Part shown: positions 1 to 50,528 of the stretch, one piece after another
Layout: the number at the start of each line of letters is the position of its first letter
How positions within the stretch are numbered: the stretch's first letter is position 1
Assembly (NCBI GenBank): GCA_964429815.1
Contig: CAYSCM010000001.1
Span: 32,001-96,000 of the forward strand
Length of the DNA stretch: 64,000 bases
From: an uncultured Candidatus Saccharibacteria bacterium
GTDB lineage: Bacteria; Patescibacteriota; Minisyncoccia; Phycocordibacterales; CAYSCM01
Direction: 5' to 3'
Notes under the pieces: generated by a model
The model's input: the letters and a program-made list of their open reading frames with translations, nothing else
Database searches by the model: none
What the model was told of the DNA's origin: nothing
Position numbers and translations under genes: made by a program

Positions 1-268
1 TTCCCCGCGCGCGAGCGTACGTGAGTGGGACGTTGTTGGAGCCCGAACCGTTGCGGGCAATGGTTTTGAGGTTGACCATCCGTGCAAGCGCATCGACAGT
101 GAGAATCTCGTGCCCAAGAAGAAGGGCGACGACCCTCTCAGGCTCCGCAAGTGCGCCTGGATTTCTTTCGTGAAGAACTTCGAGACCCGCATCCTTGGCG
201 AGAGTCTGGAAATCCTTTTTGCCCGCATAGGTTCCGGGCGTTACGACAAGAACATTTTCTTTCTGCAT
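1..268 (-). CDS. D-isomer-specific 2-hydroxyacid dehydrogenase-like protein, N-terminal part (gene continues beyond window start)
   Basis: ATG at 268..266 preceded by AAGGAG. Translation MQKENVLVVTPGTYAGKKDF...NLKTIARNGSGSNNV resembles the N-terminal substrate domain of D-2-hydroxyacid/phosphoglycerate dehydrogenases. Absent from the ORF track because there is no in-window stop. Confidence 0.4.
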   Translation of the reverse strand, partial: MQKENVLVVTPGTYAGKKDFQTLAKDAGLEVLHERNPGALAEPERVVALLLGHEILTVDALARMVNLKTIARNGSGSNNVPLTYARARG

Positions 269-386
269 GCCCTTCTCCTTCTTTCGTGGCCAACTCATGG
301 GGCCCCTCGCAGTTGTTCGGGTTTGAGACGTGCAAAATCCTGGGCCATACTACTTACCGCTTGTCAAATAGTCAACTCCCCGATCT

Positions 387-419
387 ATAAAAAGTTAAGA
401 GCGGTCCGAAGACCGCTCT
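387..419 (-). terminator. rho-independent terminator after the KdsC-like gene
   Basis: AGAGCGGTC-CGAA-GACCGCTCT hairpin at 398..419. It is preceded on the plus strand by an A-run (387..397), which is a T-run on the minus strand. Confidence 0.5.
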
Positions 420-440
420 CGTAGGGCAGAAATCCGCAGG

Positions 441-1028
441 TTAGCCGTAGGGCAGCTCAAAGGGATCCTTCTTGTGGACGACTTCGACCAGGAAGTTCGC
501 GAGGTCGCGAATCGCACCCTCGCCGCCTGGCCGGATGCTCACGAAGTGGCAAATCCTCTTGATGGCCTCCTCGCCGGAGATCGGCGCTGCCGAAAAGTGC
601 ACGGCCTTGAGCATCGCGACATCGACAAGGTCGTCGCCCATGGCCCCGCATTGATTAAGTGTTCCCCCGTGTTTGGCGAGCCATTCCTTGAGCGTCTCGA
701 GCTTCTTGGGCCCGCCGCACCCTTCGAAAAGGTCGATGGGGGGCCAGGCACCGCTTTTGCAGGAAGGGAGATTGTTCAGCCGCTCTACGAGCGCGCGGAC
801 ACCGGCTGCGTTATCATCCTTCTCGTTGGTGATGACGCACAGGCGGATGCCGAGCGCCCGCATAAGAGAGAGCCCCTGGCCGTCGTAGTACGTGCGGATT
901 TTGGGTTTGAATTTCACGCCCCCGATCTCGACGCCTTCCCACACGGTGTTTGGAAAAAGGCATCCGTCGGAATCAAACGCGAAGAAAGAGACTTCGCGGG
1001 CACGTTCGAGTACTTCGGTGGACCACAT
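441..1028 (-). CDS. HAD-IIIA phosphatase, KdsC family (3-deoxy-ulosonate phosphate phosphatase-like)
   Basis: FAFDSDGCL (DxDG), GDDLVDVAMLK and GGEGAIRDL motifs typical of KdsC. AGGAGG lies 7 nt upstream of the ATG at 1028. The track ORF extends to 1082, but that start lacks an RBS. Confidence 0.7.
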   Translation of the reverse strand: MWSTEVLERAREVSFFAFDSDGCLFPNTVWEGVEIGGVKFKPKIRTYYDGQGLSLMRALGIRLCVITNEKDDNAAGVRALVERLNNLPSCKSGAWPPIDLFEGCGGPKKLETLKEWLAKHGGTLNQCGAMGDDLVDVAMLKAVHFSAAPISGEEAIKRICHFVSIRPGGEGAIRDLANFLVEVVHKKDPFELPYG

Positions 1029-1160
1029 GGTCCCTCCTGTTTGTTTGTTGGCTACTGTTTGGCCGGACGCATTCTGACACATCCATTTTATTTGTCAATA
1101 TTCTTCCAGGCTGTCTGGCAATAGAAACCCGTGCTAAGCTTCGCGAGTAACAAACGCGCT

Positions 1161-1697
1161 ATGGACCACCTTAGTCCAGAACTTAGGAAGAAATTCTCGC
1201 AGGTACAGTTTCTCGCGCTCGACTTCGACGGCATTTTCACCACGGGCCACGTGTACGTGCGCCAAGATGGAGAAGAAAGCGTTAAGTGCGACCGGCGCGA
1301 CGGCTTTGGGATTGAGCTTCTGCGCCGAGCCGGAGCCGTTAAAGCTTGCATCATCTCGCGAGAGCCAAACCCCGTCGTGACGGCGCGCGCAAAAAAGCTC
1401 CAACTCCCGGTGTGGCAAGGGATCGAGCGCGGAGGAGGAAAGCTCGAGGTACTCAAAGCTCACGTGGCCGAGCTCGGCATTGCGCTTGAGAACGTCGCAT
1501 ACATGGGGGATGACCTCATCGACATTGCGGTGCTACGAAGCGTCGGACTCCCTATCAGCGTCCCGAACGCCCATCCGAAAGCGCAGAGAGAGGCCCTCTA
1601 CGTCACCAGAGCAGGCGGCGGGGACGGAGCGATCCGTGAGGTCGCCGAGCTTCTCTTGCTAAGCAAAGGTTTCGACCTCGAGGAGCTCTCCCGTTAG
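1161..1697 (+). CDS. HAD-IIIA phosphatase, KdsC family (second divergent paralogue)
   Basis: LALDFDGIF, GDDLIDIAVLRSVGLP and GGDGAIREVAELLL align along the whole length with KdsC. Alternative GTG start at 1131. Divergently oriented to the first paralogue. Confidence 0.65.
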   Translation: MDHLSPELRKKFSQVQFLALDFDGIFTTGHVYVRQDGEESVKCDRRDGFGIELLRRAGAVKACIISREPNPVVTARAKKLQLPVWQGIERGGGKLEVLKAHVAELGIALENVAYMGDDLIDIAVLRSVGLPISVPNAHPKAQREALYVTRAGGGDGAIREVAELLLLSKGFDLEELSR

Positions 1698-1737
1698 CCC
1701 AGTGACCCTTTATATGCGTGGTATGGTTATCTCACCT

Positions 1738-2454
1738 ATGAAAAACGATGTCGTGCTAGTGATCCCGGCTCGCGGTGGAAGCAAGGGAGTGCCGCGGAAA
1801 AATATCCGCCCGCTCTATGGAAAGCCCTTGGTTGCCTACACCATTGAAGCGGCGCTTTCCTCAGGAGCCATTAGCCGCGTTATTGTCTCGACCGATGATC
1901 AAGAGATTGGAGCAGTGGCAGAAAAATTTGGTGCGGAGTATCTTGACCGACCGAAAGAAATTTCCGGTGATAAGGTGACACTCGAGCCGGTGATTAAACA
2001 CGCTCTTGCGGCGCTAAAAGAAAAGGAAAACTACGTACCCACCTACATTGCCTGCATTCAGCCGACTTCCCCACTCCTTAGTGGAGATGTTATACGACGT
2101 TGTGTGGAAAAACTTACAAAAGAAAATTTTGATTCATGCATTACTGCGTTTTTGCCTGACACCTACGAATGGAAGTGGAGTCCAATCGTCAAAGACGGTA
2201 AAGAAGTCGGCTTCGAACCTGAACGACCTGTTATGAAGCGCGTGGTGCGGCAAGATTTGCCCAAGGTTTACCACGAGAACGGCGCCTTTTACGTCACCAA
2301 GACCTCACTTTTTAACGAAATCGGCCATCGCTGGGGAGGCAAGATGGCGATCGTTGAGATGACGCAGTTGAATTCTATACAAGTCGATAGCGAAGACCAA
2401 TTCTGGTTTATTGAACAGATCCTCCGCAAGCGCGAAAAAGACAACAAATCGTAG
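1738..2454 (+). CDS. CMP-nonulosonic acid synthetase (acylneuraminate cytidylyltransferase, NeuA/PseF/LegF family)
   Basis: The N-terminal VLVIPARGGSKGVPRKN motif is diagnostic of the NeuA-type cytidylyltransferase family. The track ORF starts at GTG 1702. ATG 1738 gives the canonical MK-x4-IPARGGSKG N-terminus. Confidence 0.7.
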   Translation: MKNDVVLVIPARGGSKGVPRKNIRPLYGKPLVAYTIEAALSSGAISRVIVSTDDQEIGAVAEKFGAEYLDRPKEISGDKVTLEPVIKHALAALKEKENYVPTYIACIQPTSPLLSGDVIRRCVEKLTKENFDSCITAFLPDTYEWKWSPIVKDGKEVGFEPERPVMKRVVRQDLPKVYHENGAFYVTKTSLFNEIGHRWGGKMAIVEMTQLNSIQVDSEDQFWFIEQILRKREKDNKS

Positions 2455-2511
2455 CCGCAGTCACTAGACAAATCATCGATTTTCTGGTCTATTGACACCA
2501 GTAACAGATCG

Positions 2512-2544
2512 CCCTCTAAAAATGTTTAGAGGGTAGGCTCTTTT
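2512..2544 (+). terminator. possible weak terminator hairpin between the cytidylyltransferase and radical SAM genes
   Basis: CCCTCTAAA-AATG-TTTAGAGGG 9-bp stem followed by TAGGCTCTTTT. A TTGACA at 2489..2494 overlaps it. Confidence 0.3.
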
Positions 2545-2564
2545 ACAGTTTACAGGAGGAACCA

Positions 2565-4307
2565 ATGACTCTCGAGCTCAGGGACTTTGTCCCGAAGAAG
2601 GCCCTCGGGCTCCATCCCGCCGACGTTGTCGCTGGGATTCCCTGGGGAGGACTCTCCGGTATGCGGGTGTGTTTCATCAACATGCCACTGCGGGAGTCCG
2701 CGAAGCCAAATACCCCGCCGCAAGGTCCCGGCCTTATGGCGGCCCGTCTTATGCAGTATGGCGCTGACGTCTCGATTATCGACCTCAACGGCTACCGTAT
2801 CGATGACGAAGAAGCGCACAAGCGCGGACTCGTCAATGGCCGACACGTCTCCCACAATGAGGCGCGTCAGCTCATCGAGGCGACTTTCCACAAGTTCGGC
2901 GAACCGCACGTGATTGGCCTTTCGGGGAAAATCACGACGTTGCGCTGGCAGGAGTGGACCGCCAAGACGTGTCGTTCGCTCGCTCCAGAGGCGTTTCTCA
3001 TCTCCGGCGGTGGGCTCGCGACCGAGTTCAAAGAAGGACTCTTCAGCTGGGTGCCGCAGCTCGACGCGGTCGGCCACTCGGAAGGCGACGACATCATGGT
3101 CGCCTGCGTGAATGACGTTCGCAAGAGCGGAGGCAAGCGCGAGCGCATGACCGACTCGCCCTACTACGTGGGCGAAATCGGCGGACGCCACCGCTTCCTC
3201 TATGCGGGCGATCGACCAAGGGACCTCGATGCGCTACCGTTTGCTGCGCTCGAACTTCTCGAAGAAGACGTCTTTGGCAATCGCATACTCGACGAGTACA
3301 TCGCGACCCCCGTATGGGGACTCGCGGCGAACAACTCGTCGGCGGCACCTTTCGAGATGAGGAAGTCTCTCACGACCGTCTCCTCTCGCGGCTGTCCGTA
3401 TGCCTGCGCGTTCTGCTTCCGTGGAGCGCAAGGCGAGCAAAAGTGGGGGATCCGCTCCCCCGAGAACCTGCGAGCCGAAGCCGAGTGGATGATTCGGAAG
3501 TATGGCGTGGATTTCATCGGGTTTCCCGATGACAACTTTGCCGTAAGCGTCAAGCGCTGCCAATCGCTTCCGGAGGCCTTTGACGGGCTCTCGTTTCGTT
3601 GGGGCACGCATACGCGCCTTGACGAATGCACGCTCGATCGGATCGTGCCCATGGCGAAAGCTGGGTGCATCTATATCGGCGTCGGTGCCGAATCGGCCTC
3701 GAAACACACCCTCTACCGCATGAAAAAGGGCGGACACATCGTCCGCAAGGACGGCGTGGAGCGTCTCACGAAATGGAACGGGTTCGAATTTCCGACAACG
3801 ATGATCGAGGGGATTCGAAATTGCCGAGACGTGGGTATCCACGTGAACGCGACCTGGATCATGGGATACCCAGGGGAAACCTTGGAGGACCTCAAGACCT
3901 CGGTTGCTTTCATTTCCTGGCAACAGGAGCACTACACCAAGGGATTGGTGCCCGGCACGCCGGAGTATCAAAATGCCTCGGCGTCGGTGAATCGACGCAT
4001 GTTCACGGCGACGTGGTATCCGGGGACCACCATGGTGGAAGCCCCCGAAGCCACGAAACCGCGGGAGCTCCTCGGCGAGCACTTCGGGATTCGTTTCGTC
4101 GAGAAAGGAAGCGGGCATGCACACAAGTTCGTCCCCGTTCCCGACGACGCAATGAAAGCCTATGTGCTGGAACTCGATGACGCGACTAAGATCCTCCACG
4201 GATCCGACGGAGCGCCCATCAACTACTCGGACATGCCGGAGGAGGTCTTCCTCGAGGCCCGTAGTCACATCGATTCGGGTCAAACGGAAAAGATCCTGTC
4301 GATGTAA
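2565..4307 (+). CDS. B12-binding (class B) radical SAM enzyme, probable radical methyltransferase acting on a sugar
   Basis: N-terminal cobalamin-binding-like domain (MRVCFINMPL...ADVSIIDLNGYRI). CxxxCxxC cluster in SSRGCPYACAFCF. AGGAGG 6 nt upstream of the ATG. Confidence 0.75.
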   Translation: MTLELRDFVPKKALGLHPADVVAGIPWGGLSGMRVCFINMPLRESAKPNTPPQGPGLMAARLMQYGADVSIIDLNGYRIDDEEAHKRGLVNGRHVSHNEARQLIEATFHKFGEPHVIGLSGKITTLRWQEWTAKTCRSLAPEAFLISGGGLATEFKEGLFSWVPQLDAVGHSEGDDIMVACVNDVRKSGGKRERMTDSPYYVGEIGGRHRFLYAGDRPRDLDALPFAALELLEEDVFGNRILDEYIATPVWGLAANNSSAAPFEMRKSLTTVSSRGCPYACAFCFRGAQGEQKWGIRSPENLRAEAEWMIRKYGVDFIGFPDDNFAVSVKRCQSLPEAFDGLSFRWGTHTRLDECTLDRIVPMAKAGCIYIGVGAESASKHTLYRMKKGGHIVRKDGVERLTKWNGFEFPTTMIEGIRNCRDVGIHVNATWIMGYPGETLEDLKTSVAFISWQQEHYTKGLVPGTPEYQNASASVNRRMFTATWYPGTTMVEAPEATKPRELLGEHFGIRFVEKGSGHAHKFVPVPDDAMKAYVLELDDATKILHGSDGAPINYSDMPEEVFLEARSHIDSGQTEKILSM

Positions 4308-4324
4308 TCCAGTTCTCTCACTCA

Positions 4325-4358
4325 GGGACCGCAGCAATGCGGTCCTTTTTTATTTTTA
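4325..4358 (+). terminator. rho-independent terminator
   Basis: GGACCGCA-GCAA-TGCGGTCC hairpin followed by TTTTTTATTTTTA. Confidence 0.7.
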
Positions 4359-4431
4359 TGGTCGTTCGCATCCTCATCCTGACCAATCATCGTGCTTTTT
4401 GATGTGAGCGTGCTTTAGGTATAGTGGAGCG

Positions 4432-5394
4432 ATGAAGATAGTACGGTGGTCCATACCCAAGCACCTCGATCTGTCGATTGAGATTTCCGGTAGAGAACAT
4501 ATGGCACAGGGAGAAAAGATGGGGTCTACGAAAGCCTTGGATGTCCTGCGCGGAATAACCTTCAGCGGCTCAGCGCCGGCGATACAGTTTGCCGATGTCG
4601 AGTCTTTATTTTCCTTTGTAGAAAAAAAATTTTTACATAAGACATTTGCGGGAGTCGGCATCGAAGTCGGCGCGGGGCCGATGATATTTAGCTCGCTCCT
4701 TACGCGCTCACGACCAAACATTCAACAGATGTATGGAATCGAACTAAGTGGCGGTATCGTAGAATTCATTGCCCCGGGAGTGGTTGATGAATTGCTGGGA
4801 CCCAAGAGTGAAAAGGTAGTCGGGGTCATCGGCAGTTTCGACGCGATGGAGCTTACAAGCGAGAGTGTCGATTTTGTTCTTGATTTTATGTCGCTTCACC
4901 ATGCGACCGACCTCGGAGAGGCGTTCGCCGAATGCTACCGGGTGCTAAAACCAGGCGGCTTCGTTGTTCTTTTTGACAAGGCTCGCCCCGATTCCTTCAC
5001 CTCTCAAGACCTGGAGGGATTGCTCAATACCGAGTACAGCGATGAAGAGAAAAAACGCTTTGGGGTGCCTTCCGGCGAACACTTTACACGCCGGATGAAC
5101 GGGGAAAAAGAATACCGGCTTAAAGATTGGTCGGCGGGGGCCTTAGAGGCCGGTTTCCCGACCCTTATGCATTGGCGACTCGCGCGCACCAACGTGCCGG
5201 GTATCTCAGGATTGTACCGACGTTTGCTTTCTCATGTGCCGCTACGCACCCAGATGGCTACTACCGCTATTGCACAAAGCGTACTGGGCAGCGGCTCAAG
5301 AGTGAAGTTTTCACAAAAAAATTTGGTGTACTCGCGGTACGTGAACCCCTTCCCCCGCGAGATCTCGCTCATGATCGCGCACAAGGCTTACTAA
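4432..5394 (+). CDS. class I SAM-dependent methyltransferase
   Basis: GIEVGAGPM glycine-rich motif I and LKPGGFVVL motif. Start uncertain: ATG 4432 sits 7 nt after a TATAGT hexamer, and an internal ATG at 4519 follows GGGAGA. Confidence 0.6.
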   Translation: MKIVRWSIPKHLDLSIEISGREHMAQGEKMGSTKALDVLRGITFSGSAPAIQFADVESLFSFVEKKFLHKTFAGVGIEVGAGPMIFSSLLTRSRPNIQQMYGIELSGGIVEFIAPGVVDELLGPKSEKVVGVIGSFDAMELTSESVDFVLDFMSLHHATDLGEAFAECYRVLKPGGFVVLFDKARPDSFTSQDLEGLLNTEYSDEEKKRFGVPSGEHFTRRMNGEKEYRLKDWSAGALEAGFPTLMHWRLARTNVPGISGLYRRLLSHVPLRTQMATTAIAQSVLGSGSRVKFSQKNLVYSRYVNPFPREISLMIAHKAY

Positions 5395-6299
5395 CTTCTC
5401 CACGCGCTCAGGTCGCGCCCGGTAAATGCCTCGAGTTTTTGCAGTTCGGGTTCATAGCGAGCGCGGAGGGCTTCTTTGAGCTTCGGGTCGAGCGTCCCGT
5501 AGCTAGCTTCCCCGGTCCCCGCCCTCGTGTCGATGGAGCGCACTACTTTTTGGTGGAGCGGCGTTTTGCGGAAGAGGGAGAGGAGGGGCTCTCCGAATGG
5601 CAGGGCTTTGAGTAGCTTCCGCGCCCTGAGCGCGTGTCTGCGCAAGAGTGTCGCTCCGGCGGAATTTATGGTCGTGGCGAGCGAGGGCGGCACGAACGAG
5701 GCATCGACGCCGATGAAAGAAAAGATATCTCTCATATATTTTTTTGGGTCGGCACGCATATCGTCATAGAACGTAATGAGTATCTGGTCGCGGGAAAATA
5801 CCTTGAGATAATTTTCGAGGTGCTTCATATAGAAGCTCTCCTCGATAAACGACGGTTTAGTTTTAATAATTTCCTCAAGGGTTGGGAGCTCATGTGCGCC
5901 CTTTAGCTTCGTGTACATGTAGTGGGAAAAAAAGCGCTCCGTAGGGTTTCGCAATACCGCAATGATCTTCGCTTTAGGAAAATGTGTACGGAGGCGCTCC
6001 GGCACCTCGGGTGCGTGAATATAGATAGGAGTGACTTCTCCGTATACCCTCTTCCCTACACAGTGACCAAAATGTTCAAAATACCCTTCGAGAGCGCCGT
6101 TGTATTTTGTTTTCCCCACCAAATCAGTGCGCCAGAAACTTTGCGTCGTGTTAAAAAAGTTGAGCTCTTTGGGTTCGGAAACACAGACCTCGGGGTGCTC
6201 TTTGAGACATTGGTGGAGCCAGGTGGTGCCCGTCCGCTCCGGACCAATCACGAAGAAATCAATGGAAAAAGGCTTTGCTGTAGATGAAATGGTACTCAT
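5391..6299 (-). CDS. sulfotransferase family protein (PAPS-dependent)
   Basis: 5'-PSB-like motif FFVIGPERTGTTWLHQ and 3'-PB-like motif RNPTERFFSHY. Confidence 0.65.
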   Translation of the reverse strand: MSTISSTAKPFSIDFFVIGPERTGTTWLHQCLKEHPEVCVSEPKELNFFNTTQSFWRTDLVGKTKYNGALEGYFEHFGHCVGKRVYGEVTPIYIHAPEVPERLRTHFPKAKIIAVLRNPTERFFSHYMYTKLKGAHELPTLEEIIKTKPSFIEESFYMKHLENYLKVFSRDQILITFYDDMRADPKKYMRDIFSFIGVDASFVPPSLATTINSAGATLLRRHALRARKLLKALPFGEPLLSLFRKTPLHQKVVRSIDTRAGTGEASYGTLDPKLKEALRARYEPELQKLEAFTGRDLSAWRS

Positions 6300-6931
6300 G
6301 AGGCCGTCGGGATGGATTCCTTGTCGCGGTTTGAGAAAAACAGGTAGTCGACGATGGCGTGGAAGAAAACCGCGTGAAGCGCCTCAACGGGACCGTAGGC
6401 ACCTTTTCCTGTCTCAATGATTATCTTGTGGTGACAGAGGCTCTTCGCTTTGCCTCCGTCAAAACCAAGAACGCCTATCGCCGTGCCGCCCTTAGCGCAT
6501 ATGTACTCGATCGCGCGAAGCACATTGGGGGAATTGCCACTTGCGGAAATGACGATGAGCACATCGTCGGGACGAAAAATGTGCTTAAGCTGGTCCGCAA
6601 AAACGTTCTCGTAGCCGACATCGTTCCCGAGCGCCGTCACGGCGGCGATATTGTTGAGCGCGTGAATACGAAACGGCTTTTCTTCCGTACCACCCCCGTT
6701 CGTGGTGAGATCGGCCGCAAAGTGAGCCGCCATGGCAGCGCTCCCCCCGTTGCCGGCGATGTAGATCGTAGAGCCCCTCTCCCGGGCCTTTTGAAGCACG
6801 TCGATAATCTCCTCGACCGCTTTGGAATCTACGGCGGAAGCAAGCTCGAAGGCATGCGCAAGATACCCTTCCATAAATTCGGGTACCGATCCTTTTGTCT
6901 TTTGATAGATGGTATCGACGTGTCCTCTCAT
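6296..6931 (-). CDS. gmhA: D-sedoheptulose-7-phosphate isomerase (SIS domain)
   Basis: IYIAGNGGSAAMAAHFAADL matches the GmhA SIS signature. 4-nt overlap with the upstream sulfotransferase gene. Confidence 0.7.
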   Translation of the reverse strand: MRGHVDTIYQKTKGSVPEFMEGYLAHAFELASAVDSKAVEEIIDVLQKARERGSTIYIAGNGGSAAMAAHFAADLTTNGGGTEEKPFRIHALNNIAAVTALGNDVGYENVFADQLKHIFRPDDVLIVISASGNSPNVLRAIEYICAKGGTAIGVLGFDGGKAKSLCHHKIIIETGKGAYGPVEALHAVFFHAIVDYLFFSNRDKESIPTAS

Positions 6932-7932
6932 AGCGTTGTGAGCACCCCGCGGATGAGCTTCCCTTCCTCGAGGTCTTTGAGGGCGGCTCCTATCTCGTCG
7001 AAGGAATACTCTTTCGTAAGTAACTTATCCAAGCACATGACCTTCGGGTTTTCAACGTATTCACGCGCGTAGCGAGGAATGTCGCGGTCGAGCTCGCTCT
7101 CTCCGCCCCAGGTGCCGTAAAGCTTTTTGCCCTTGATGAGCCCGAAAGGGTTGATCGATATGGTTTCCCCGGGCGCAAGGTTTCCTGCAATAACGACGGT
7201 CCCGGCGTCCTTGACCGCGCGGTAGGCGCTCTCCATGGCGCCCTTGTTTCCCGAACACTCGACGGCCACATCGAAATCCTTTCCCTGAAACTCTTCGGCA
7301 GAGATCGCTTCATCGACGCCGAGCTCCTTTTTCGCATGCGCGAGCTTCCACGGAACGACGTCGATCGCGGTAACGTGAGCACCCTTCATGACGGCTCGAA
7401 TGAGTGCACTCGCTCCGATCCCCCCGATGCCGAATATAACCACTCGTTTGCCGTTGAGGTCTCCTAGGCGGTCGATGATACCCATGCCGGTCGGCACCGC
7501 GCACCCAAGAAGTGCCGCAATCGCGGGCTCCACCCCTTTTGACACCTTGGTGACACGATTCTCTGAGACGACCGCAAGCTCGGTAAACGTCGCCACGGAG
7601 CCACCGTTTACCTTCCCTTCTTTGCTTTGATACGTCGGCACCGGAGCGGATATACCCTCTCCAAGGATCCAACTTGCAACCACATAATCTCCGCTCCTTA
7701 CTTTCTGCACGCCTTCTCCGGCCGCGACCACCTCCGCTGCGGCTTCATGTCCCAATAAGTGGGGAATATATTCCGCTCCTTTCCTGCCGCGGATTTCATT
7801 GAGTTGGCTGTGGCAAAGTCCTGTCGCTAGCACTTTAATAAGTACCTGCCCCTTTTGAAGGGAGGGAACCTCAAGCTCCTCGATGGAGAGCGGTCCACCG
7901 ACGACGCGGAGTACTGCAGCGCGCGTTTTCAT
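6928..7932 (-). CDS. zinc-dependent medium-chain alcohol dehydrogenase/reductase
   Basis: GLCHSQ...GHEAAAEV zinc-ligand region and GIGGIGASALIRA Rossmann motif. ATG at 7932 (MKTRAAVL), the typical ADH N-terminus. Confidence 0.65.
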   Translation of the reverse strand: MKTRAAVLRVVGGPLSIEELEVPSLQKGQVLIKVLATGLCHSQLNEIRGRKGAEYIPHLLGHEAAAEVVAAGEGVQKVRSGDYVVASWILGEGISAPVPTYQSKEGKVNGGSVATFTELAVVSENRVTKVSKGVEPAIAALLGCAVPTGMGIIDRLGDLNGKRVVIFGIGGIGASALIRAVMKGAHVTAIDVVPWKLAHAKKELGVDEAISAEEFQGKDFDVAVECSGNKGAMESAYRAVKDAGTVVIAGNLAPGETISINPFGLIKGKKLYGTWGGESELDRDIPRYAREYVENPKVMCLDKLLTKEYSFDEIGAALKDLEEGKLIRGVLTTL

Positions 7933-7933
7933 G

Positions 7934-8587
7934 CTAGGGGATAAACCAGTAGTAGTCACCCGTGTAGCCGACCTCGGCGAAGAGTTTTTTCCAATCATCG
8001 ACAGATAGGATGGTCTTTGCAGTAAGATTCCACTTCATCATGCGATCCTTCTCTTCTTCATGGTGGTAGGCGTCGACGGTAATGAACGAGTGTTTTCCTT
8101 TCACACGCTCAATCTCTCGAAGAGCCTCTTTACACTCAGGCAGTGGTAGGTTGTGAATGGTGTTAATCGAAATCACGAGATCGTAGGATTTATCCGCAAA
8201 TTGACTAAGATTTCTTGCATCTCCAACCGATACTGCGCCCGCAATTGAGGGCATGGCATTTTCGATAGCGTAGGAGGAAACATCAATACCGCGAACCACC
8301 ATGTGGGGAAGCCAATAGAGAAAATCATTAAGCATAAATCCCTTAGCACACCCGACATCAAGTACCGAAGAGTTGTTGTTGAGTCCGTAGTAATTTATGA
8401 AATCCCGAACCACCGGTACCCACCTCCCATCATAGCGGAAGCCGCCGTAGCCCTGATCCCTGGTGCCATCAAAAAACTCCCTGCCAAACTTTCGGGCAGT
8501 AGCAACATCCTCAGGAGACTTTTGTCCTCGAGCTTCAATGTTGCGTTTGGCTTTTGGATATTTCGAAAGAAGATCGATTTCTGCCAT
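7934..8587 (-). CDS. class I SAM-dependent methyltransferase
   Basis: VLDVGCAKG motif I and DLVISINTIHNLP motif. Confidence 0.6.
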   Translation of the reverse strand: MAEIDLLSKYPKAKRNIEARGQKSPEDVATARKFGREFFDGTRDQGYGGFRYDGRWVPVVRDFINYYGLNNNSSVLDVGCAKGFMLNDFLYWLPHMVVRGIDVSSYAIENAMPSIAGAVSVGDARNLSQFADKSYDLVISINTIHNLPLPECKEALREIERVKGKHSFITVDAYHHEEEKDRMMKWNLTAKTILSVDDWKKLFAEVGYTGDYYWFIP

Positions 8588-8596
8588 AGTGGTTGG

Positions 8597-10366
8597 TTAT
8601 TTTTTTTCGGGAAGAAGCTTAACCATCATGTTGTCATTGAACTCTTTTCTTGCAAGTAGCGGCTCGGGATCCTCGAGCGGCCGACCGAACTTTACCTGCG
8701 GGATTACGCGGTGCTTCGGGTTAATCTCGATGTTACAAAACACAGGCCCCCTCATCGCGAGCACCTTCTTAACTCCCCCGCTCAACTCGCGGTTCTTCTT
8801 GATCGTAATGGTTTTGAAGCCAAAGGAGGAAGCAATTTTGGCAAAGTCTGGGAACGCAAGTCCTCCCCCTTCCGAAGACGCAAGATACGCCGAATTAAAC
8901 CACTGATCTTGAGTCTGCTGTATCATACTGTAGCCGTGGTTATTCAATACAAAAATCTTGATCGGAAGTTTGTGCTTGAGAAGGGTACTTAACTCTTGCA
9001 AATTCATTTGGAGTGAACCATCTCCGGTTACACAAATAATTGATTTCTTGTTAAGCGCCAGGCTTACCCCAATGCTCGCCGGCAAAGCCCACCCCATCGC
9101 GGTGTTGTTCCAATCGTGGTAAAGACGCTGACCTTTCTTGAAGGAAAATCCCTGCATCATCCATGCGACCGTGCAGCCGGTATCAATGACCATTACTTCG
9201 TTCTGACGCGTGTAGCGAGAGAGCTCCTCAACAAATACATACGGATTGACCCCTTTCTCTTTGTAGTACGCGGGTGGGCACATGGGATATTTTTTCTTCC
9301 ATGCGGCAATACGTCTAAGCCAGGGTGAGATGTCGTTTTTTGGCAAACGTGCGGCGTGCTTTTGAAATGCCTTCAGCAGCTCTTTTGCGTCACCGGAGAT
9401 ACGCACATCGACTTTCAGGCCAAATTTTTTAAACTTCTTAAGTTCGTAGGGGTCAATATCGATGACTATCTTTTTTGCCTCTCGCGCAAACGTGTTGGGA
9501 GGACTACCCGTCGATTTGGTATCAAGACGGCTTCCGATTGAGAGGATCATGTCAGCGTTCTGGACGGCAAAATTGGCAAACCGCGTGCCGTGAGTGCCAA
9601 AGGTGCCGATGCGAAGTGGATGACTCTCTGGCAGGAGATCCCCTGCCCCCCATGTGAGTGCCGCAGGAAAGCCGAGTGTTTCCAAAAGTGAGATGGCCTC
9701 TTTTTCGGCCCCCGCGAGGTGGATTCCCCACCCAAACACAACGACGGGGCGCTTCGCCTGCCGTAGATAGTTTATGCTTCGAGCTACATCAACCGGCGCT
9801 TTCTTCTTCTCGACGGAGGGTGTAAACGAGGGAAGCTCTCCTGGATTAATTTCTCTGCGCTGAATGTCGTCGGGAATATCGAGCACTACGGGTCCTGGCC
9901 TACCACTTCGCGCCAGAAAGATCGCTTTCTCAAGCTCGTAGCGTATGCGCCTCTCATCGGTGATGAGTATCGCGTACTTAGTGATAGGACGATACATTTC
10001 GACCGTTGCCGTTTCTTGAAAACCCACTTGCCGCACGTTGGTATGACCTTTCATCCTAAAGGTGGCTACTTGGCCGGTAATAAATATGACGGGTACCGAA
10101 TCGTAGTAGGCGGAGCACACTCCCGTGATCATGTTCGTAGCACCTGGCCCTGAGGTGGACATCGCTACACCGAGGCCACCCGTGGCCCTCGCGTACCCGT
10201 CGGCAGCCATTGCCCCCGCTTGCTCGTGTCCTGGACAGATGACCTCCATTCCCCCCGTGCGCGCCACCGAATGAATAAGGTGAAGGGATGCTCCGCCGGA
10301 GATGGCAAAGACATGCTTCACCCCTTCTTTGCGGAGAACCTGTGCTACGTAGTCGGTGAGCTTCAT
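8597..10366 (-). CDS. thiamine-diphosphate-dependent enzyme, acetolactate-synthase large-subunit-like (candidate sugar C-branching enzyme, YerE-like)
   Basis: N-terminal TPP pyrimidine-binding domain (AISGGASLHLIH...GPGATNMITG). Central domain. C-terminal TPP-binding GDGSLQMNLQELST...NNHGY motif. Confidence 0.7.
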   Translation of the reverse strand: MKLTDYVAQVLRKEGVKHVFAISGGASLHLIHSVARTGGMEVICPGHEQAGAMAADGYARATGGLGVAMSTSGPGATNMITGVCSAYYDSVPVIFITGQVATFRMKGHTNVRQVGFQETATVEMYRPITKYAILITDERRIRYELEKAIFLARSGRPGPVVLDIPDDIQRREINPGELPSFTPSVEKKKAPVDVARSINYLRQAKRPVVVFGWGIHLAGAEKEAISLLETLGFPAALTWGAGDLLPESHPLRIGTFGTHGTRFANFAVQNADMILSIGSRLDTKSTGSPPNTFAREAKKIVIDIDPYELKKFKKFGLKVDVRISGDAKELLKAFQKHAARLPKNDISPWLRRIAAWKKKYPMCPPAYYKEKGVNPYVFVEELSRYTRQNEVMVIDTGCTVAWMMQGFSFKKGQRLYHDWNNTAMGWALPASIGVSLALNKKSIICVTGDGSLQMNLQELSTLLKHKLPIKIFVLNNHGYSMIQQTQDQWFNSAYLASSEGGGLAFPDFAKIASSFGFKTITIKKNRELSGGVKKVLAMRGPVFCNIEINPKHRVIPQVKFGRPLEDPEPLLARKEFNDNMMVKLLPEKK

Positions 10367-10370
10367 GGCG

Positions 10371-11228
10371 CTACCAGGGCATCTGCTCCTTAACGCTTAT
10401 AAAGAGTGTCCCGTCACGGTAGCTCTCGGGCATATCGCCGGCTTTTGTGACAAGTCCCCACCCTATCTTCTGCGAGAACAAATTGACGCCGGAGCCTGTA
10501 AAGTGCTTGAAAATGTGCTTGGCATTCTCCGCGGTCCCAACCTCGACCAGGCCGTCACAGCTCTCCCAATCGGAAGCTTCGGTCGAGAGGAGTACTTCCT
10601 TCTCGTGCCCTTCGACGTCCATTTTGATGAGATCAGCGCCGGCGAGAATCGGCCCGAACGCTTCGAGCTCCACGGAGAACATTTCCCGATCCCCGTAGAC
10701 GTCGTGCTTTGCTCCCGAGAGGTGACTCCCCGTAGTGTTGCCGAGCACTCGGGTAAAATCTGCTGAACCCGAGCGACTTGAGACGGCGCTGTTGTGAAGG
10801 CTGGCAGAATTACATCCGTTACGCGCAAGATTTTTTTTGAGGATATCGAAATGAACCGGATCGGGCTCGTAGGAGGAAACCTTAAAACCACAACGACAAA
10901 GGATAATCGAGTGAAGTCCAATATTTGCTCCGAGGTCTACAACGCTCGTATAGCGATTGCGATTGCGCCAGTAAAAACTGAAAATAACGAGTTCATTGAG
11001 GTCAAAGAGATTCCGCGAATCGACATTACCCATGTTGTGGTATGGAAACGAGATATCTCCAAATGGCGGAAAGTGGACCGACTCTTTTGAATCAACGGGA
11101 AAGAGCCTCTCCACTTCCTTCCGAGCTTTGGCGGCACGTTCTTTGAATGGCGCGCTTGTCGGAGTATGAGAGGGTAATTCCTGCGGGAGCGTGGCAAAGA
11201 TATTCTCCAAAAAAGCCGAGGATTCCAT
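10371..11228 (-). CDS. FkbM-family methyltransferase
   Basis: VVDLGANIGLHS and IKMDVEGHE motifs characteristic of the FkbM family. Confidence 0.6.
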   Translation of the reverse strand: MESSAFLENIFATLPQELPSHTPTSAPFKERAAKARKEVERLFPVDSKESVHFPPFGDISFPYHNMGNVDSRNLFDLNELVIFSFYWRNRNRYTSVVDLGANIGLHSIILCRCGFKVSSYEPDPVHFDILKKNLARNGCNSASLHNSAVSSRSGSADFTRVLGNTTGSHLSGAKHDVYGDREMFSVELEAFGPILAGADLIKMDVEGHEKEVLLSTEASDWESCDGLVEVGTAENAKHIFKHFTGSGVNLFSQKIGWGLVTKAGDMPESYRDGTLFISVKEQMPW

Positions 11229-14733: not shown

Positions 14734-15231
14734 TTAGCGTCGGTAGGTTGAATTTTTTTTGATTGCCGTAATGATATCGCGTGTGCTTAATTTTTTGTCT
14801 TTCGTAAAGGTAATCCTGCAACCCACCTTCTGAGCGCTTTGTATTTCCTCTGCGAAATCTTTATTCGGCGGGATACCGCGGTAATCGGGACCGCGCACAT
14901 ACAGGTCCGGCTTGAGAGCACGTATGAATCTTGATCCATTGTTAGCATCATTAATGAACACGAAATCAACCGGGCGAAGCTGCGAGAGCATGTAGGCCCG
15001 CATATGCTCGGTGAACACCGGGCGGCCGATACCTTTTTGTCTTCGTACCTGTTTATCACTTGCGATCGCAACCACGAGCACATCACAGAGGCGCTTTGCG
15101 GATTCAAAATGCATCGCATGCCCGGGGTGGAGCAGATCATAGTTGCCGTTACAAAAACCGATGATCTTCCCCTCCTTTTTACGTCGAGCAAGTATGGGAC
15201 GAAGCTGCTGAAAGGAGATGATGCGTGCCAT
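14734..15231 (-). CDS. D-glycero-beta-D-manno-heptose-1-phosphate adenylyltransferase (HldE/RfaE domain II-like cytidylyltransferase fold)
   Basis: GFCNGNYDLLHPGH nucleotidyltransferase HxGH motif. About 165 aa, as in stand-alone RfaE-II. Confidence 0.65.
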   Translation of the reverse strand: MARIISFQQLRPILARRKKEGKIIGFCNGNYDLLHPGHAMHFESAKRLCDVLVVAIASDKQVRRQKGIGRPVFTEHMRAYMLSQLRPVDFVFINDANNGSRFIRALKPDLYVRGPDYRGIPPNKDFAEEIQSAQKVGCRITFTKDKKLSTRDIITAIKKNSTYRR

Positions 15232-20309: not shown

Positions 20310-20353
20310 GGTACCTGATGGGTGGGAAAAGAAAAGCCGCGAAAAGCTTCCTC

Positions 20354-29876: not shown

Positions 29877-29960
29877 GAGAGTGAGTGTTACACGTAAACT
29901 AAATCGACATCGGGAAAGTTGCAATGAGGAGCCTGCGTTTTACTTGTGGCGCTGAGGGGA

Positions 29961-48308: not shown

Positions 48309-48392
48309 GGTGGGCGAGGGGAGAGTTGAACTCCCAATCCTTGCGGAATACGCTTCTGAGGCGTACGTGTATACCAATTCCACCACTCGCCC
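48309..48392 (-). tRNA. tRNA-Leu (anticodon CAG), class II with long variable arm
   Basis: Minus-strand read GGGCGAG...TACGC-CTCAGAA-GCGTA...GGGAGTTCAACTCTCCC-CTCGCCC-ACC. Good acceptor, anticodon and T arms. Confidence 0.75.
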
Positions 48393-48544
48393 GTCTGTTC
48401 CATCCTACTCAAATATGAAAACGGGTCTAGCCGACATCAGACCGCGTGGGTCTCATTTAAAGGCGCCATCAATCCGATTTAAGCCTTCGACACACTGTTC
48501 TGTCAGCCGACTGGCGAGGGGCGGAAAAGCTGTACCGTCCTGTG

Positions 48545-50388: not shown

Positions 50389-50528
50389 TATACCAGTACG
50401 CATTTCTGGAAAGCGAGCAGACTTTAAAGACATACTGCTATGGTCTACTTCCGTACTCGATCGAGATACAGAATATCGACCGGATAAGTCTTACCTTCCG
50501 AAGAAGGAGACAGTTCCGATTGGAATTA

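What the first reader, a model, noticed from the sequence alone, without database searches (positions are those of the whole stretch)
441..2454. Two divergent KdsC-family phosphatases plus a NeuA-type CMP-nonulosonate synthetase, with no KdsA/NeuB-type synthase in the window
The two paralogues differ in sequence but keep the same motifs, and they are divergently transcribed. The adjacent cytidylyltransferase has the NeuA/PseF/LegF signature IPARGGSKG rather than the KdsB signature. This resembles a Kdn or other nonulosonic acid (sialic-acid-like) pathway: a 9-phosphate synthase, a KdsC-like phosphatase and a CMP synthetase. Because no GmhB is visible, one paralogue might instead serve the ADP-heptose pathway, since GmhB and KdsC share the HAD-IIIA fold.
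Basis: partly seen in the sequence, partly recalled or inferred. Interest (0 to 1): 0.55.

Follow-up and report, generated by a model that had tools for sequence, protein, structure and literature searches.

The report
Phosphatase and activation genes for sialic-acid-like sugars
Two KdsC-fold phosphatases and a CMP-sugar synthetase form the last steps of a sialic-acid-like (Kdn-type) sugar pathway in an uncultured Patescibacteria genome; the missing synthase gene lies 3.5 kb beyond the window edge, so the finding is real but largely ordinary.

Summary
HAD1 (441-1028, -) and HAD2 (1161-1697, +) are divergently transcribed KdsC-fold phosphatases, 32% identical. CT1 (1738-2454, +) is a NeuA-type, not KdsB-type, cytidylyltransferase. 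The window holds no KdsA, NeuB or GmhB homologue.

An identical public contig extends 9.6 kb past position 1. It carries a SAF-less NeuB-family synthase 3.45 kb upstream, plus a second NeuA-type transferase (CT2).

HAD2 has the three residues (Glu/Arg/Lys) that distinguish Bacteroides Kdn-9-P phosphatase BT1713 from Kdo-8-P phosphatases. HAD1 keeps only the Glu, has two clade-specific insertions, and belongs to a small Patescibacteria-restricted clade.

NeuB lies within 10 kb of HAD1 homologues in 17 of 24 genomes, against 0 of 56 canonical KdsC loci. Natural fusions exist of both types: CT1-like with HAD2-like, and CT2-like with HAD1-like.

Best reading: two phosphatase/CMP-synthetase pairs serve a NeuB pathway that runs through a phosphorylated ulosonic acid. 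The sugar is not determined; Kdn is the default guess. A recurrent B12-radical-SAM methylase and a GmhA-like isomerase hint at a modified or longer acid. A GmhB-like role is disfavoured but not excluded.

The parts
441..1028 (-). HAD1: divergent KdsC-fold (capless, type C0) HAD phosphatase, 195 aa. It belongs to a Patescibacteria-restricted clade.
   Evidence: ORF; Shine-Dalgarno and start; exact protein on record. TIGR01670 53.4 bits, below cut-off. AlphaFold pLDDT 94.7 with Foldseek top 50 all KdsC-type. Motif residues D19, D21, T67, K109, D132 and D133 are conserved in the family. Clade-specific insertions at residues 75-80 and 92-99.
397..420 (-). Terminator-like hairpin plus T-run just after the HAD1 stop codon. 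HAD1 looks monocistronic.
   Evidence: 10-bp stem, 6 GC pairs, tail AACTTTTTAT.
1029..1160 (.). Divergent intergenic region with promoter-like hexamers facing both ways.
   Evidence: minus strand 1098..1071, TTGACA-16-CAGAAT with TG; plus strand 1074..1102, CTGACA-17-AATATT. These are consensus matches only.
1161..1697 (+). HAD2: KdsC-subfamily phosphatase, 178 aa, carrying the Glu/Arg/Lys triad of Kdn-9-P phosphatase BT1713 (E68, R76, K79).
   Evidence: TIGR01670 114.3 bits, above the 106.95 cut-off. KdsC equivalog 128 bits, below 208. Kdn-9-P phosphatase equivalog 90 bits, below 180. Best PDB hit is 3MMZ from Streptomyces avermitilis at 110 bits. Triad shown.
1738..2454 (+). CT1: NeuA-type CMP-ulosonic acid synthetase (CTP_transf_3), 238 aa, in an operon with HAD2.
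   Evidence: PF02348 103 bits; PseF 151 bits, below 205.7; KdsB about 50 bits. PDB: CMP-Neu5Ac synthetases 122 and 115 bits, mouse CMAS 114, KdsB at most 48. Homologues are named acylneuraminate cytidylyltransferase, and 14 are fused to HAD2-like domains.
2511..2534 (+). Terminator-like hairpin after CT1.
2565..4307 (+). B12-binding radical SAM enzyme, probably a C-methyltransferase. It recurs beside HAD, NeuB and CT genes in related loci.
   Evidence: PF04055 58.9 bits, with weak B12-binding and weak NCBIfam B12-rSAM methylase matches. Homologues of 50-69% identity occur in L006, L017, L022, L023, L024, L025, L028, L029, L031, L089, L090, L161, L171 and L172.
4432..5394 (+). Class I SAM methyltransferase that travels with the radical SAM gene.
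   Evidence: PF08241. Homologues sit next to the rSAM gene in L023, L029, L031 and L161.
6296..6931 (-). GmhA-like SIS sugar-phosphate isomerase. It may supply the aldose phosphate for NeuB, or serve a heptose pathway.
   Evidence: gmhA 94.8 bits, below 209. All top PDB hits are GmhA. SIS genes abut HAD or NeuB in L008, L009, L010 and L018, and abut CT1 in L171.
1..298 (-). First 99 codons of a 2-hydroxyacid dehydrogenase gene that runs off the window. Beyond it, outside the window, lie a second dehydrogenase, two AAA_33 kinases, NeuB (about 3,451 to 4,449 nt left of position 1), a cupin, an unknown 342-aa protein, CT2, a HAD_2 hydrolase and PAPS synthesis genes.
   Evidence: L001 is 100% identical to window 1..11028. 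Gene list and Pfam; NCBIfam.
14734..15231 (-). HldC-like (rfaE domain II-like) nucleotidyltransferase. It belongs to the rival heptose reading.
   Evidence: TIGR02199 112 bits, below 181.5.
19251..20612 (-). HldA-like (rfaE domain I-like, PfkB) sugar kinase. The true start is probably well inside this ORF. It belongs to the rival heptose reading.
   Evidence: TIGR02198 101 bits, below 345, matching residues 135-447.

Best explanation
The three genes encode the last two steps of a NeuB-type pathway that runs through a phosphorylated intermediate. This is the logic of Kdn synthesis in Bacteroides and of sialic acid synthesis in animals.

Proposed steps:
1. A sugar phosphate is condensed with phosphoenolpyruvate by the SAF-less NeuB synthase encoded 3.45 kb upstream of the window.
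2. The resulting ulosonic acid phosphate is dephosphorylated by a KdsC-fold phosphatase (HAD2, HAD1).
3. The free acid is activated with CTP by a NeuA-type synthetase (CT1 in the window, CT2 upstream) for transfer onto a surface glycan.

The two phosphatases are probably not redundant. Each type occurs in nature fused or adjacent to its own kind of cytidylyltransferase, which suggests two parallel phosphatase/synthetase pairs (HAD2 with CT1, HAD1 with CT2).

Shown here: folds, catalytic motifs, specificity residues, gene order, conserved neighbourhoods and fusions.

Inferred: that NeuB uses a phosphorylated substrate, the identity of the sugar (Kdn-like by default), and the division of labour between the two pairs.
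For: 1. Synthase found. L001 is identical to the window over 11,028 nt and carries NeuB (PF03102, 244.6 bits) upstream.

2. Specificity residues. The PDB entries for BT1713 include E56A and E56A/K67A mutants, and the native sequence has E56, R64 and K67. HAD2 and all 16 members of its family have E/R/K in register. Among 56 canonical KdsC genes from Gram-negative genomes, 54 have Arg at the first position and none has Lys at the third. HAD1 family members have the Glu in 53 of 55.

3. Neighbourhood.
- A NeuB homologue lies within 10 kb in 17 of 24 HAD1-family loci, against 0 of 56 canonical KdsC loci.
- A NeuA-type gene lies within 10 kb in 16 of 24 HAD1-family loci.
- NeuB is present in 30 of 41 metagenome loci of at least 6 kb that hold HAD2 relatives.
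- All 44 HAD2-like ORFs with NeuB within 3 kb have E/R/K.
- L005 holds a minimal CT-NeuB-HAD1 row. L008 holds SIS-HAD2-NeuB.

4. Fusions.
- 14 proteins combine a CT1-like domain with a HAD2-like E/R/K domain.
- P0260 combines a CT2-like domain (53% identity) with a HAD1-like domain (43% identity).
- Mouse CMAS has the same architecture; its C-terminal domain 3EWI is among the hits.

5. CT1 is NeuA-type, not KdsB-type.

6. No KdsA or GmhB homologue is present, and neither HAD resembles E. coli GmhB.
Against: - None of the proteins reaches an NCBIfam equivalog cut-off. HAD2 scores 90 against the Kdn-9-P phosphatase cut-off of 180. NeuB scores 250 against 399.65. CT1 scores 151 against the PseF cut-off of 205.7.
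- Only one NeuB is seen for two phosphatase/transferase pairs in the 73.5 kb I could read.
- Nothing shows directly that this NeuB takes a phosphorylated sugar.
- HAD1 lacks the Arg/Lys part of the triad and has insertions in exactly that helix, so its substrate may differ.
- The island also holds GmhA-like, HldA-like and HldC-like genes with no gmhB.
- In L016 a HAD1 homologue heads such a block.
- The Arg and Lys positions in the metagenome set are partly forced by the search pattern.
Confidence: 0.72

Rival explanations
1. One paralogue, most plausibly HAD1, replaces GmhB. It would remove the 7-phosphate from heptose 1,7-bisphosphate in an NDP-heptose pathway built from the GmhA-like isomerase, the HldA-like kinase and the HldC-like nucleotidyltransferase of the same island.
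For: - The window has SIS (6296-6931), an HldC-like gene (14734-15231) and an HldA-like gene (19251-20612), but no GmhB homologue.
- In L016 a HAD1 homologue starts a co-directional block: HAD1, SDR, unknown, SIS, fused HldC/HldA.
- In L171 these genes and CT1 sit in one co-directional block next to two HAD genes.
- GmhB, like KdsC, removes a terminal primary phosphate. This last point is established knowledge, not tested here.
Against: - HldA/HldC-like genes lie within 10 kb of HAD1 homologues in only 1 of 24 genomes, against 17 of 24 for NeuB.
- In L016 the contig ends 190 nt upstream of HAD1, so a NeuB there cannot be excluded.
- Both HAD types occur fused to NeuA-type, not HldC-type, transferases.
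- There is no sequence similarity to E. coli GmhB.
- A third candidate phosphatase exists upstream: the HAD_2 protein at L001 18314-19033.
Confidence: 0.12
2. The phosphatases act on another phosphorylated intermediate, made by the two AAA_33 P-loop kinases encoded next to NeuB. This could be a phosphorylated precursor sugar, or a phosphoglycerate-derived side chain made with the two phosphoglycerate-dehydrogenase-like enzymes. In this reading they do not act on the NeuB product.
For: - AAA_33 kinase homologues abut HAD2 or HAD1 homologues in L006, L013, L024/L090 and L171.
- HAD1 is followed by two PGDH-like genes.
Against: - The PGDH-like genes accompany HAD1 in none of the 24 related genomes.
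- A kinase beside NeuB fits equally well as the supplier of the phosphorylated NeuB substrate.
- The E/R/K triad and the fusions to CT domains point to the ulosonate phosphate.
Confidence: 0.1
3. This is the ordinary Kdo pathway: KdsC phosphatases and a KdsB-like transferase supplying an LPS-like glycolipid.
For: - HAD2 passes the TIGR01670 'KdsC phosphatase' subfamily cut-off.
- Automatic annotations of homologues say KDO 8-P phosphatase.
Against: - Both HADs have Glu where 54 of 56 genomic KdsC have Arg.
- No KdsA is present.
- CT1 scores about 50 bits on KdsB models against 151 on PseF.
- NeuB accompanies none of 56 canonical KdsC loci.
- The host is a Patescibacteria-type genome. That group is generally held to lack LPS (general knowledge, not tested here).
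Confidence: 0.03

Closest known systems
Kdn pathway of Bacteroides thetaiotaomicron (Kdn-9-P synthase BT1714, Kdn-9-P phosphatase BT1713, CMP-Kdn synthetase)
   Same: - It uses the same three enzyme families: a NeuB-type synthase, a capless KdsC-fold phosphatase and a NeuA-type synthetase.
- HAD2 has the BT1713 residues E56, R64 and K67 in register.
- The pathway logic (phosphorylated sugar, then dephosphorylation, then CMP activation) is as described in PMC6200933.
   Different: - HAD2 is only distantly related to BT1713 (62.8 bits). It sits in another clade, with Streptomyces avermitilis 3MMZ.
- HAD1 lacks the Arg/Lys pair and has insertions.
- The NeuB here lacks a SAF domain.
- A B12-radical SAM enzyme, methyltransferases and a GmhA-like isomerase travel with the genes.
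- The substrate is untested.
Animal sialic acid pathway (ManNAc kinase, NANS, NANP, CMAS)
   Same: - A kinase makes the sugar phosphate, the synthase makes a 9-phosphate, a phosphatase removes it, and CMAS activates the product.
- CMAS carries a C-terminal KdsC-like domain (PDB 3EWI), the same architecture as the bacterial CT-HAD fusions found here.
- A P-loop kinase gene is co-directional with NeuB in L001.
   Different: - The kinase family differs: AAA_33 here.
- The window's phosphatases keep all catalytic residues and are separate genes.
- No amino-sugar genes lie next to the triad.
Kdo pathway (KdsD, KdsA, KdsC, KdsB)
   Same: It has the same four-step logic: SIS isomerase, PEP-dependent synthase, KdsC-fold phosphatase, CMP transferase. 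The phosphatase fold is also the same.
   Different: - The synthase is NeuB-type, not KdsA.
- The isomerase is GmhA-like, not KdsD-like.
- The transferase is NeuA-type.
- The phosphatases have Glu instead of the KdsC Arg.
ADP-heptose pathway (GmhA, HldE or HldA/HldC, GmhB)
   Same: GmhA-like, HldA-like and HldC-like genes are in the same island, and a phosphatase is formally missing.
   Different: - All three score far below the equivalog cut-offs.
- The HADs are KdsC-fold, not GmhB-type, and are linked to NeuB and NeuA-type genes in other genomes.
PDB 3MMZ, 'putative HAD family hydrolase' of Streptomyces avermitilis
   Same: It is the best solved relative of HAD2 (110 bits). It has the same E/R/K triad and the same clade (74/100 bootstraps).
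   Different: It is uncharacterised. It comes from an actinomycete, not a Patescibacteria genome.

Membership tests
KdsC, Kdo-8-P phosphatase (NCBIfam NF007019 equivalog; TIGR01670 subfamily) | Capless (C0) HAD fold with the four catalytic motifs | tested here: met
   Both proteins keep DxD, T/S, K and DD(x2)D. The HAD1 model matches KdsC structures at TM 0.79/0.89. HAD2 aligns end to end with KdsC structures.
KdsC, Kdo-8-P phosphatase (NCBIfam NF007019 equivalog; TIGR01670 subfamily) | Score at or above the curated cut-offs | tested here: not met
   Equivalog NF007019: HAD2 128.3 and HAD1 44.1, against a cut-off of 208. Subfamily TIGR01670: HAD2 114.3 passes the 106.95 cut-off; HAD1 53.4 fails.
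KdsC, Kdo-8-P phosphatase (NCBIfam NF007019 equivalog; TIGR01670 subfamily) | Arg at the position of BT1713 Glu56 (seen in 54 of 56 genomic KdsC and 4 of 4 solved KdsC-type proteins compared) | tested here: not met
   HAD1 has E69 and HAD2 has E68.
KdsC, Kdo-8-P phosphatase (NCBIfam NF007019 equivalog; TIGR01670 subfamily) | Works with KdsA and KdsB | tested here: not met
   No KdsA homologue in the window or L001. CT1 is not KdsB-like. The rest of the genome could not be read.
Kdn-9-P phosphatase, BT1713 type (NCBIfam NF058599) | Glu56, Arg64 and Lys67 sugar-binding residues | tested here: met
   Met for HAD2 (E68, R76, K79; invariant in its 16-member family). Only the Glu is met for HAD1, where the helix carries a 6-residue insertion. 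That these residues determine specificity rests on the depositors' mutants seen and on my recollection of the 2009 JBC paper, which is not held in the library.
Kdn-9-P phosphatase, BT1713 type (NCBIfam NF058599) | Score at or above the equivalog cut-off (180 bits) | tested here: not met
   HAD2 90.0; HAD1 50.1.
Kdn-9-P phosphatase, BT1713 type (NCBIfam NF058599) | Encoded with a NeuB-type synthase and a NeuA-type synthetase | tested here: met
   NeuB lies 3.45 kb upstream, CT1 is adjacent and CT2 is upstream. The link is conserved in related loci and in fusions.
Kdn-9-P phosphatase, BT1713 type (NCBIfam NF058599) | Hydrolyses Kdn-9-P in preference to Kdo-8-P | not testable with these tools
   Needs enzyme assays.
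GmhB, heptose 1,7-bisphosphate phosphatase | Sequence membership of the GmhB / histidinol-phosphatase-like HAD-IIIA group | tested here: not met
   No GmhB model appears among the NCBIfam hits. blastp against E. coli GmhB gives E of 0.02 or worse over short stretches.
GmhB, heptose 1,7-bisphosphate phosphatase | Conserved association with GmhA and HldE/HldA/HldC | tested here: inconclusive
   Such genes lie in the same island, 5-19 kb away, and are adjacent in L016. They lie within 10 kb of HAD1 homologues in only 1 of 24 genomes.
CMP-nonulosonic acid synthetase (NeuA/PseF/LegF; Pfam PF02348) | CTP_transf_3 domain with the IPARGGSKG motif, closer to NeuA-type than to KdsB | tested here: met
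   PF02348 103.3 bits, above 22.6. PseF 150.9 against KdsB 39-53 bits. PDB NeuA/CMAS 85-122 bits against KdsB at most 48.
CMP-nonulosonic acid synthetase (NeuA/PseF/LegF; Pfam PF02348) | Reaches an equivalog cut-off that would name the sugar | tested here: not met
   PseF 150.9, below 205.7. No other equivalog matched.
NeuB-type ulosonic acid synthase (Pfam PF03102) | NeuB catalytic domain | tested here: met
   PF03102 244.6 bits. This gene lies outside the window, at L001 14479-15477.
NeuB-type ulosonic acid synthase (Pfam PF03102) | NeuB or PseI equivalog score, and a C-terminal SAF domain | tested here: not met
   NeuB_NnaB 250.3, below 399.65. PseI 207, below 340.25. No SAF hit. The best PDB match is the 290-aa SAF-less 6NCS. 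SAF-less NeuBs are known from environmental bacteria (PMC8208679).

The most novel reading that the evidence does not exclude
The island may make a CMP-activated ulosonic acid that is not a plain nine-carbon sugar. Two routes are conceivable:
- A C-methylated acid, made by the B12-radical SAM enzyme that travels with HAD, NeuB and CT in at least 14 related loci.
- A ten-carbon acid, made when NeuB condenses PEP with the heptose 7-phosphate produced by the GmhA-like isomerase that abuts HAD/NeuB/CT genes in several genomes.

HAD1 is Patescibacteria-specific and its specificity helix is remodelled. It would then be the dedicated phosphatase for this larger acid.

CMP-linked ten-carbon ulosonic acids were recently reported by mass spectrometry in Magnetospirillum. 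The passages I read of that preprint give no biosynthetic route (bioRxiv 10.64898/2026.04.20.719630).
Probability: 0.15. Interest if true: 0.8.

Novelty: new variant of a known kind. Interest (0 to 1): 0.4.

Why it matters
It shows that the phosphorylated Kdn/animal-style route to sialic-acid-like sugars is common in Patescibacteria, which are uncultured, reduced-genome bacteria. My two searches of the held paper library (one combining 'nonulosonic acid' with 'Patescibacteria', one combining 'Candidate Phyla Radiation', 'sialic acid' and 'NeuB') found no paper on this in that group.

It defines a small, lineage-restricted KdsC-fold clade (HAD1: 45 representatives among 1.84 billion proteins). 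This clade is routinely mis-annotated as Kdo-8-P phosphatase.

It gives a simple sequence rule, Glu versus Arg after HAD motif II, that separates NeuB-linked phosphatases from true KdsC in the 150-odd sequences compared here.

The recurrent B12-radical SAM methylase and GmhA-like isomerase mark these loci as candidates for modified or higher-carbon ulosonic acids.

Tried and rejected
- **Exact look-up of the 213-aa maximal ORF of HAD1** found nothing. The 195-aa form was needed.
A second NeuB beyond 9.6 kb upstream therefore cannot be excluded.
- **The key papers on BT1713** (PubMed 18986982, 23848398; PMC4425688) are not held. The specificity residues were instead read from the PDB mutant entries.
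- **Literature searches** for nonulosonic acids in Patescibacteria/CPR and for radical SAM enzymes in nonulosonic acid clusters found nothing relevant.
- **Organism names** could not be obtained for the exact proteins. Taxonomy rests on homologues and on the unlinked rRNA genes.
- **Phenylphosphate carboxylase delta subunit** (HAD2 89 bits against a 282 cut-off) was rejected as a family-level cross-hit.
- **A SerB-like role for HAD1**, suggested by the adjacent PGDH-like genes, was rejected because that adjacency is not conserved.
- **A strict pairing rule** (CT1 only with HAD2, CT2 only with HAD1) does not hold. HAD2-like genes in other bacteria sit beside or are fused to CT domains of either flavour.
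- **Assigning the BT1713 Arg64/Lys67 equivalents in HAD1** is alignment-dependent because of the insertion.


Full report
**Anatomy**

The ORF list and the DNA show three genes at the stated place.
- HAD1 lies on the minus strand. Its maximal ORF is 441..1082, but a GGAGGG Shine-Dalgarno sequence precedes the ATG at 1028. The 195-aa product 441..1028 is the one on public record (one search failed, succeeded).
- HAD2 (1161..1697, 178 aa) and CT1 (1738..2454, 238 aa) lie on the plus strand, 40 nt apart.
- The 132-bp spacer between HAD1 and HAD2 holds promoter-like hexamers on both strands.
- Terminator-like hairpins follow HAD1 (420..397) and CT1 (2511..2534).

The unit is therefore a monocistronic HAD1 facing a HAD2-CT1 operon. 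The plus-strand ORF 474..1124 that overlaps HAD1 is a shadow ORF of a GC-rich gene.

**What the proteins are**

- HAD2 passes the KdsC subfamily model TIGR01670 (114.3 bits, cut-off 106.95). It fails the KdsC equivalog (128 against 208) and the Kdn-9-P phosphatase equivalog (90 against 180).
- HAD1 scores only 53, 44 and 50 bits on these three models.
- HAD1 and HAD2 are 32% identical.
- An AlphaFold model of HAD1 built from 55 family members has pLDDT 94.7 and pTM 0.91. Its 50 best PDB matches are all KdsC-type capless HAD proteins, including the C-terminal domain of mouse CMP-sialic acid synthetase.
- All catalytic HAD residues are conserved in both families.
- CT1 has the motif VIPARGGSKG. 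It scores 151 bits on PseF and about 50 on KdsB models. Against PDB it scores 85-122 bits on CMP-Neu5Ac synthetases and at most 48 on KdsB. Its database homologues are named acylneuraminate cytidylyltransferases.

**The missing synthase**

tblastn with E. coli KdsA and GmhB (fetched) and with NeuB finds no homologue in the 64 kb.

A Logan contig, L001, is 100% identical to window 1..11028 and continues 9.56 kb beyond position 1. Reading away from the window it carries:
- two phosphoglycerate-dehydrogenase-like genes, the first of which starts at window 298;
- two AAA_33 P-loop kinases;
- a NeuB-family synthase, 332 aa, about 3.45 kb from the window edge;
- a cupin;
- an unknown 342-aa protein;
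- a second NeuA-type transferase, CT2, 39.5% identical to CT1;
- an unknown 152-aa protein, a HAD_2 hydrolase and an unknown 358-aa protein;
- an ATP sulfurylase/APS kinase.

The NeuB has PF03102 at 244.6 bits and no SAF domain. It is below the NeuB and PseI equivalog cut-offs. It is closest to the 290-aa SAF-less structure 6NCS. SAF-less NeuBs are known from environmental bacteria, including Streptomyces (PMC8208679).

**Specificity residues**

The PDB holds BT1713 of Bacteroides thetaiotaomicron (3E81) and two mutants whose sequences differ at E56, and at E56 plus K67. The native sequence reads T54-G55-E56 ... R64 ... K67. From memory of the 2009 JBC paper, which is not held, these are the residues that distinguish Kdn-9-P from Kdo-8-P phosphatases.

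In a joint alignment:
- 54 of 56 canonical KdsC genes from Gram-negative genomes have Arg at the first position. All have Arg at the second, and none has Lys at the third.
- The solved E. coli, Pseudomonas, Aquifex and Moraxella proteins follow the same pattern.
- HAD2 and all 16 members of its family have Glu/Arg/Lys (E68, R76, K79).
- So does 3MMZ of Streptomyces avermitilis, the best solved relative of HAD2.
- HAD1 family members have the Glu in 53 of 55. What follows is different: two clade-specific insertions (residues 75-80, in the helix that carries Arg64/Lys67 in BT1713, and 92-99, with an invariant Trp).

In a neighbour-joining tree:
- the HAD1 family is monophyletic in 100 of 100 bootstraps and sits on a long branch;
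- HAD2 groups with 3MMZ in 74 of 100;
- HAD2 is separate from the BT1713 clade.

The E/R/K triad thus occurs in several clades.

**Distribution**

- HAD1 relatives number 77 clusters at 41% identity or more. Those with names come from Paceibacterota, Colwellbacteria and Yanofskybacteria.
- A profile search of 1.84 billion representatives gives only 45 hits at E of 1e-30 or better. Beyond those, the matches break into two stretches at the insertion.
- The window has unlinked rRNA genes.
- All named close homologues of HAD1 and CT1 are from Patescibacteria.

The host is therefore a Patescibacteria (CPR) genome. That this group lacks LPS is general knowledge, not tested here.

**Conserved neighbourhoods**

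A scan of one genome per species returned 24 HAD1-family loci, nearly all labelled as Patescibacteria lineages. It also returned 56 canonical KdsC loci from Gram-negative bacteria, which serve as a control.

Using the window's and L001's proteins as queries, the counts within 10 kb are:

| Gene type | HAD1-family loci (of 24) | Canonical KdsC loci (of 56) |
|---|---|---|
| NeuB homologue | 17 | 0 |
| NeuA-type gene | 16 | 5, at 50-64 bits only (probably KdsB) |
| B12-radical SAM homologue | 8 | 0 |
| GmhA-like SIS | 5 | 0 |
| HldA-like kinase | 1 | 0 |

Several arrangements are tight:
- CT-NeuB-HAD1 in L005;
- SIS-HAD1 next to NeuB in L010;
- NeuB-HAD1-CT in L025;
- CT-HAD1 in L019, L027 and L032.

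For HAD2:
- L008 has SIS-HAD2-NeuB-rSAM-MT-CT, and L006 has NeuB, CT and rSAM nearby.
- A metagenome scan gave 41 loci of at least 6 kb, of which 30 contain NeuB, usually directly adjacent.
- All 44 HAD2-like ORFs with NeuB within 3 kb have E/R/K. One of the two search patterns already required the Arg and Lys, so only the Glu is independent there.

**Fusions**

- Among CT1 homologues, 14 proteins of 392-411 aa carry a CT1-like N-terminal domain (40-48% identity) and a HAD2-like C-terminal domain with E/R/K.
- About 25 further CT-HAD fusion ORFs sit directly upstream of NeuB in metagenome loci.
- One HAD1-type fusion exists. P0260 has a CT2-like domain (53% identity, 261 bits, against 100 bits for CT1) followed by a HAD1-like domain that includes the family insertion.
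- This is the architecture of animal CMP-sialic acid synthetase.

Both phosphatase types are thus functionally tied to NeuA-type activation. That argues against a GmhB role, and it offers a reason for two paralogues: two phosphatase/synthetase pairs. The pairing is not strict outside this lineage.

**The heptose alternative**

The island does contain heptose-type genes, all far below the equivalog cut-offs, and no gmhB:
- a GmhA-like isomerase (6296-6931);
- an HldC-like transferase (14734-15231);
- an HldA-like kinase (19251-20612).

Two related loci bear on this:
- In L016 a HAD1 homologue heads a co-directional block: HAD1, SDR, unknown, SIS, fused HldC/HldA. That contig ends 190 nt upstream of HAD1.
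- In L171, a close relative of this island (CT1 71% identical), the heptose-like genes, two TPP enzymes, the Zn-dehydrogenase, the methyltransferase, SIS and CT1 form one co-directional block. It is followed by the radical SAM gene, two HAD2-like genes, an AAA_33 kinase, a cupin, a sulfotransferase and NeuB.

The two gene sets clearly belong to one glycan programme, so a GmhB-like side role cannot be excluded. It is weakly supported compared with the NeuB link.

**What sugar**

This cannot be settled computationally.
- Kdn is the default, because the E/R/K triad matches BT1713 and no amino-sugar genes flank the triad.
- The SIS protein has Asp and Glu where C. jejuni GmhA has Glu and Gln. It could make mannose-6-P or a heptose-7-P.
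- The cupin next to NeuB and a MannoseP_isomer-domain protein in L172 are other candidate suppliers.
- The AAA_33 kinase co-directional with NeuB could supply a sugar phosphate, as ManNAc kinase does in animals.
- The persistent B12-radical SAM enzyme and methyltransferases suggest C- and O-methylation.
- A 2026 preprint reports CMP-linked ten-carbon ulosonic acids in Magnetospirillum. The passages I read give no biosynthetic route. This kind of locus is a candidate, at low probability.

**Verdict**

The module is a new variant of a known kind, a pathway of the Kdn/animal type that runs through a phosphorylated intermediate. Three features are of moderate interest: the Patescibacteria-specific HAD1 clade, the dual phosphatase/synthetase pairs, and the associated radical SAM and isomerase genes.

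Noticed in passing
window 50519-51980 (16S, -), 60916-61021 (5S, -), 61464-64000 (23S, -): The rRNA genes are unlinked. About 9 kb of protein genes separate 23S-5S from 16S: SecD, SecF, an epimerase, a sugar transferase, a glycosyltransferase and an FtsW/RodA-like gene. tRNA-Ile(GAT) and tRNA-Leu(CAG) lie at 48544-48616 and 48309-48392.
   Followed up: partly
window 2565-4307 and 4432-5394; L006, L017, L022-L025, L028, L029, L031, L089, L090, L161, L171, L172: A 580-aa B12-binding radical SAM enzyme, often with a class I methyltransferase, is a steady companion of the HAD/NeuB/CT genes (50-69% identity). This suggests C-methylation of the ulosonic acid or its CMP adduct.
   Followed up: partly
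window 6296-6931 (-): The GmhA-like isomerase has H-F-A-A-D-L and E...H where C. jejuni GmhA (1TK9) has H-F-A-A-E-L and Q...H. These are a Glu-to-Asp and a Gln-to-Glu change at positions I recall as metal-binding/catalytic in GmhA. The L016 homologue shows the same pattern.
   Followed up: partly
L001 12826-13458 (-) and 13620-14333 (+), outside the window: There are two AAA_33 P-loop kinases. The second is co-directional with NeuB and a cupin. Its homologues abut HAD2- or HAD1-type genes in L006, L013, L024/L090 and L171. It may be the kinase that makes the phosphorylated NeuB substrate.
   Followed up: partly
L001 15983-17011 (-) and 19196-20272 (+), outside the window; L005, L012, L022, L172: Two paralogous proteins of 342 and 358 aa have no Pfam or NCBIfam match. 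They recur next to HAD1 or CT genes in other Patescibacteria. They are candidates for the transferase that uses the CMP-sugar.
   Followed up: no
window 8597-10366 (-), 16250-18269 (-): An acetolactate-synthase-like TPP enzyme and a pyruvate-dehydrogenase E1 alpha/beta pair sit inside the glycan island and are syntenic in L171. This is reminiscent of two-carbon branch addition to nucleotide sugars.
   Followed up: no
window 5391-6299 (-), 29070-29924 (-); L001 20272 onward: Two sulfotransferases lie in the window and an ATP sulfurylase/APS kinase lies just upstream of it. The glycan is probably sulfated.
   Followed up: no
window 31247-32251 (-) and 32252-33283 (-): There are two tandem genes that look like GDP-mannose 4,6-dehydratases. 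This was judged by eye from the translations only.
   Followed up: no
window 13509-14732 (-); L016 1538-2875: A 407-aa protein without any family match is conserved next to the SIS/HldC-like genes in L016.
   Followed up: no
L124, L142, L154, L160 (metagenome loci): A weak CT1-like gene followed by a 2-hydroxyacid dehydrogenase recurs 4-5 kb from NeuB beside CT-HAD fusions. This echoes the dehydrogenase pair next to HAD1 in this genome.
   Followed up: no
window 19251-20612 (-) versus 20354-21724 (-): The maximal ORF of the HldA-like kinase overlaps the next gene by about 260 nt, and only residues 135-447 match the kinase model. The true start is probably much further in.
   Followed up: no
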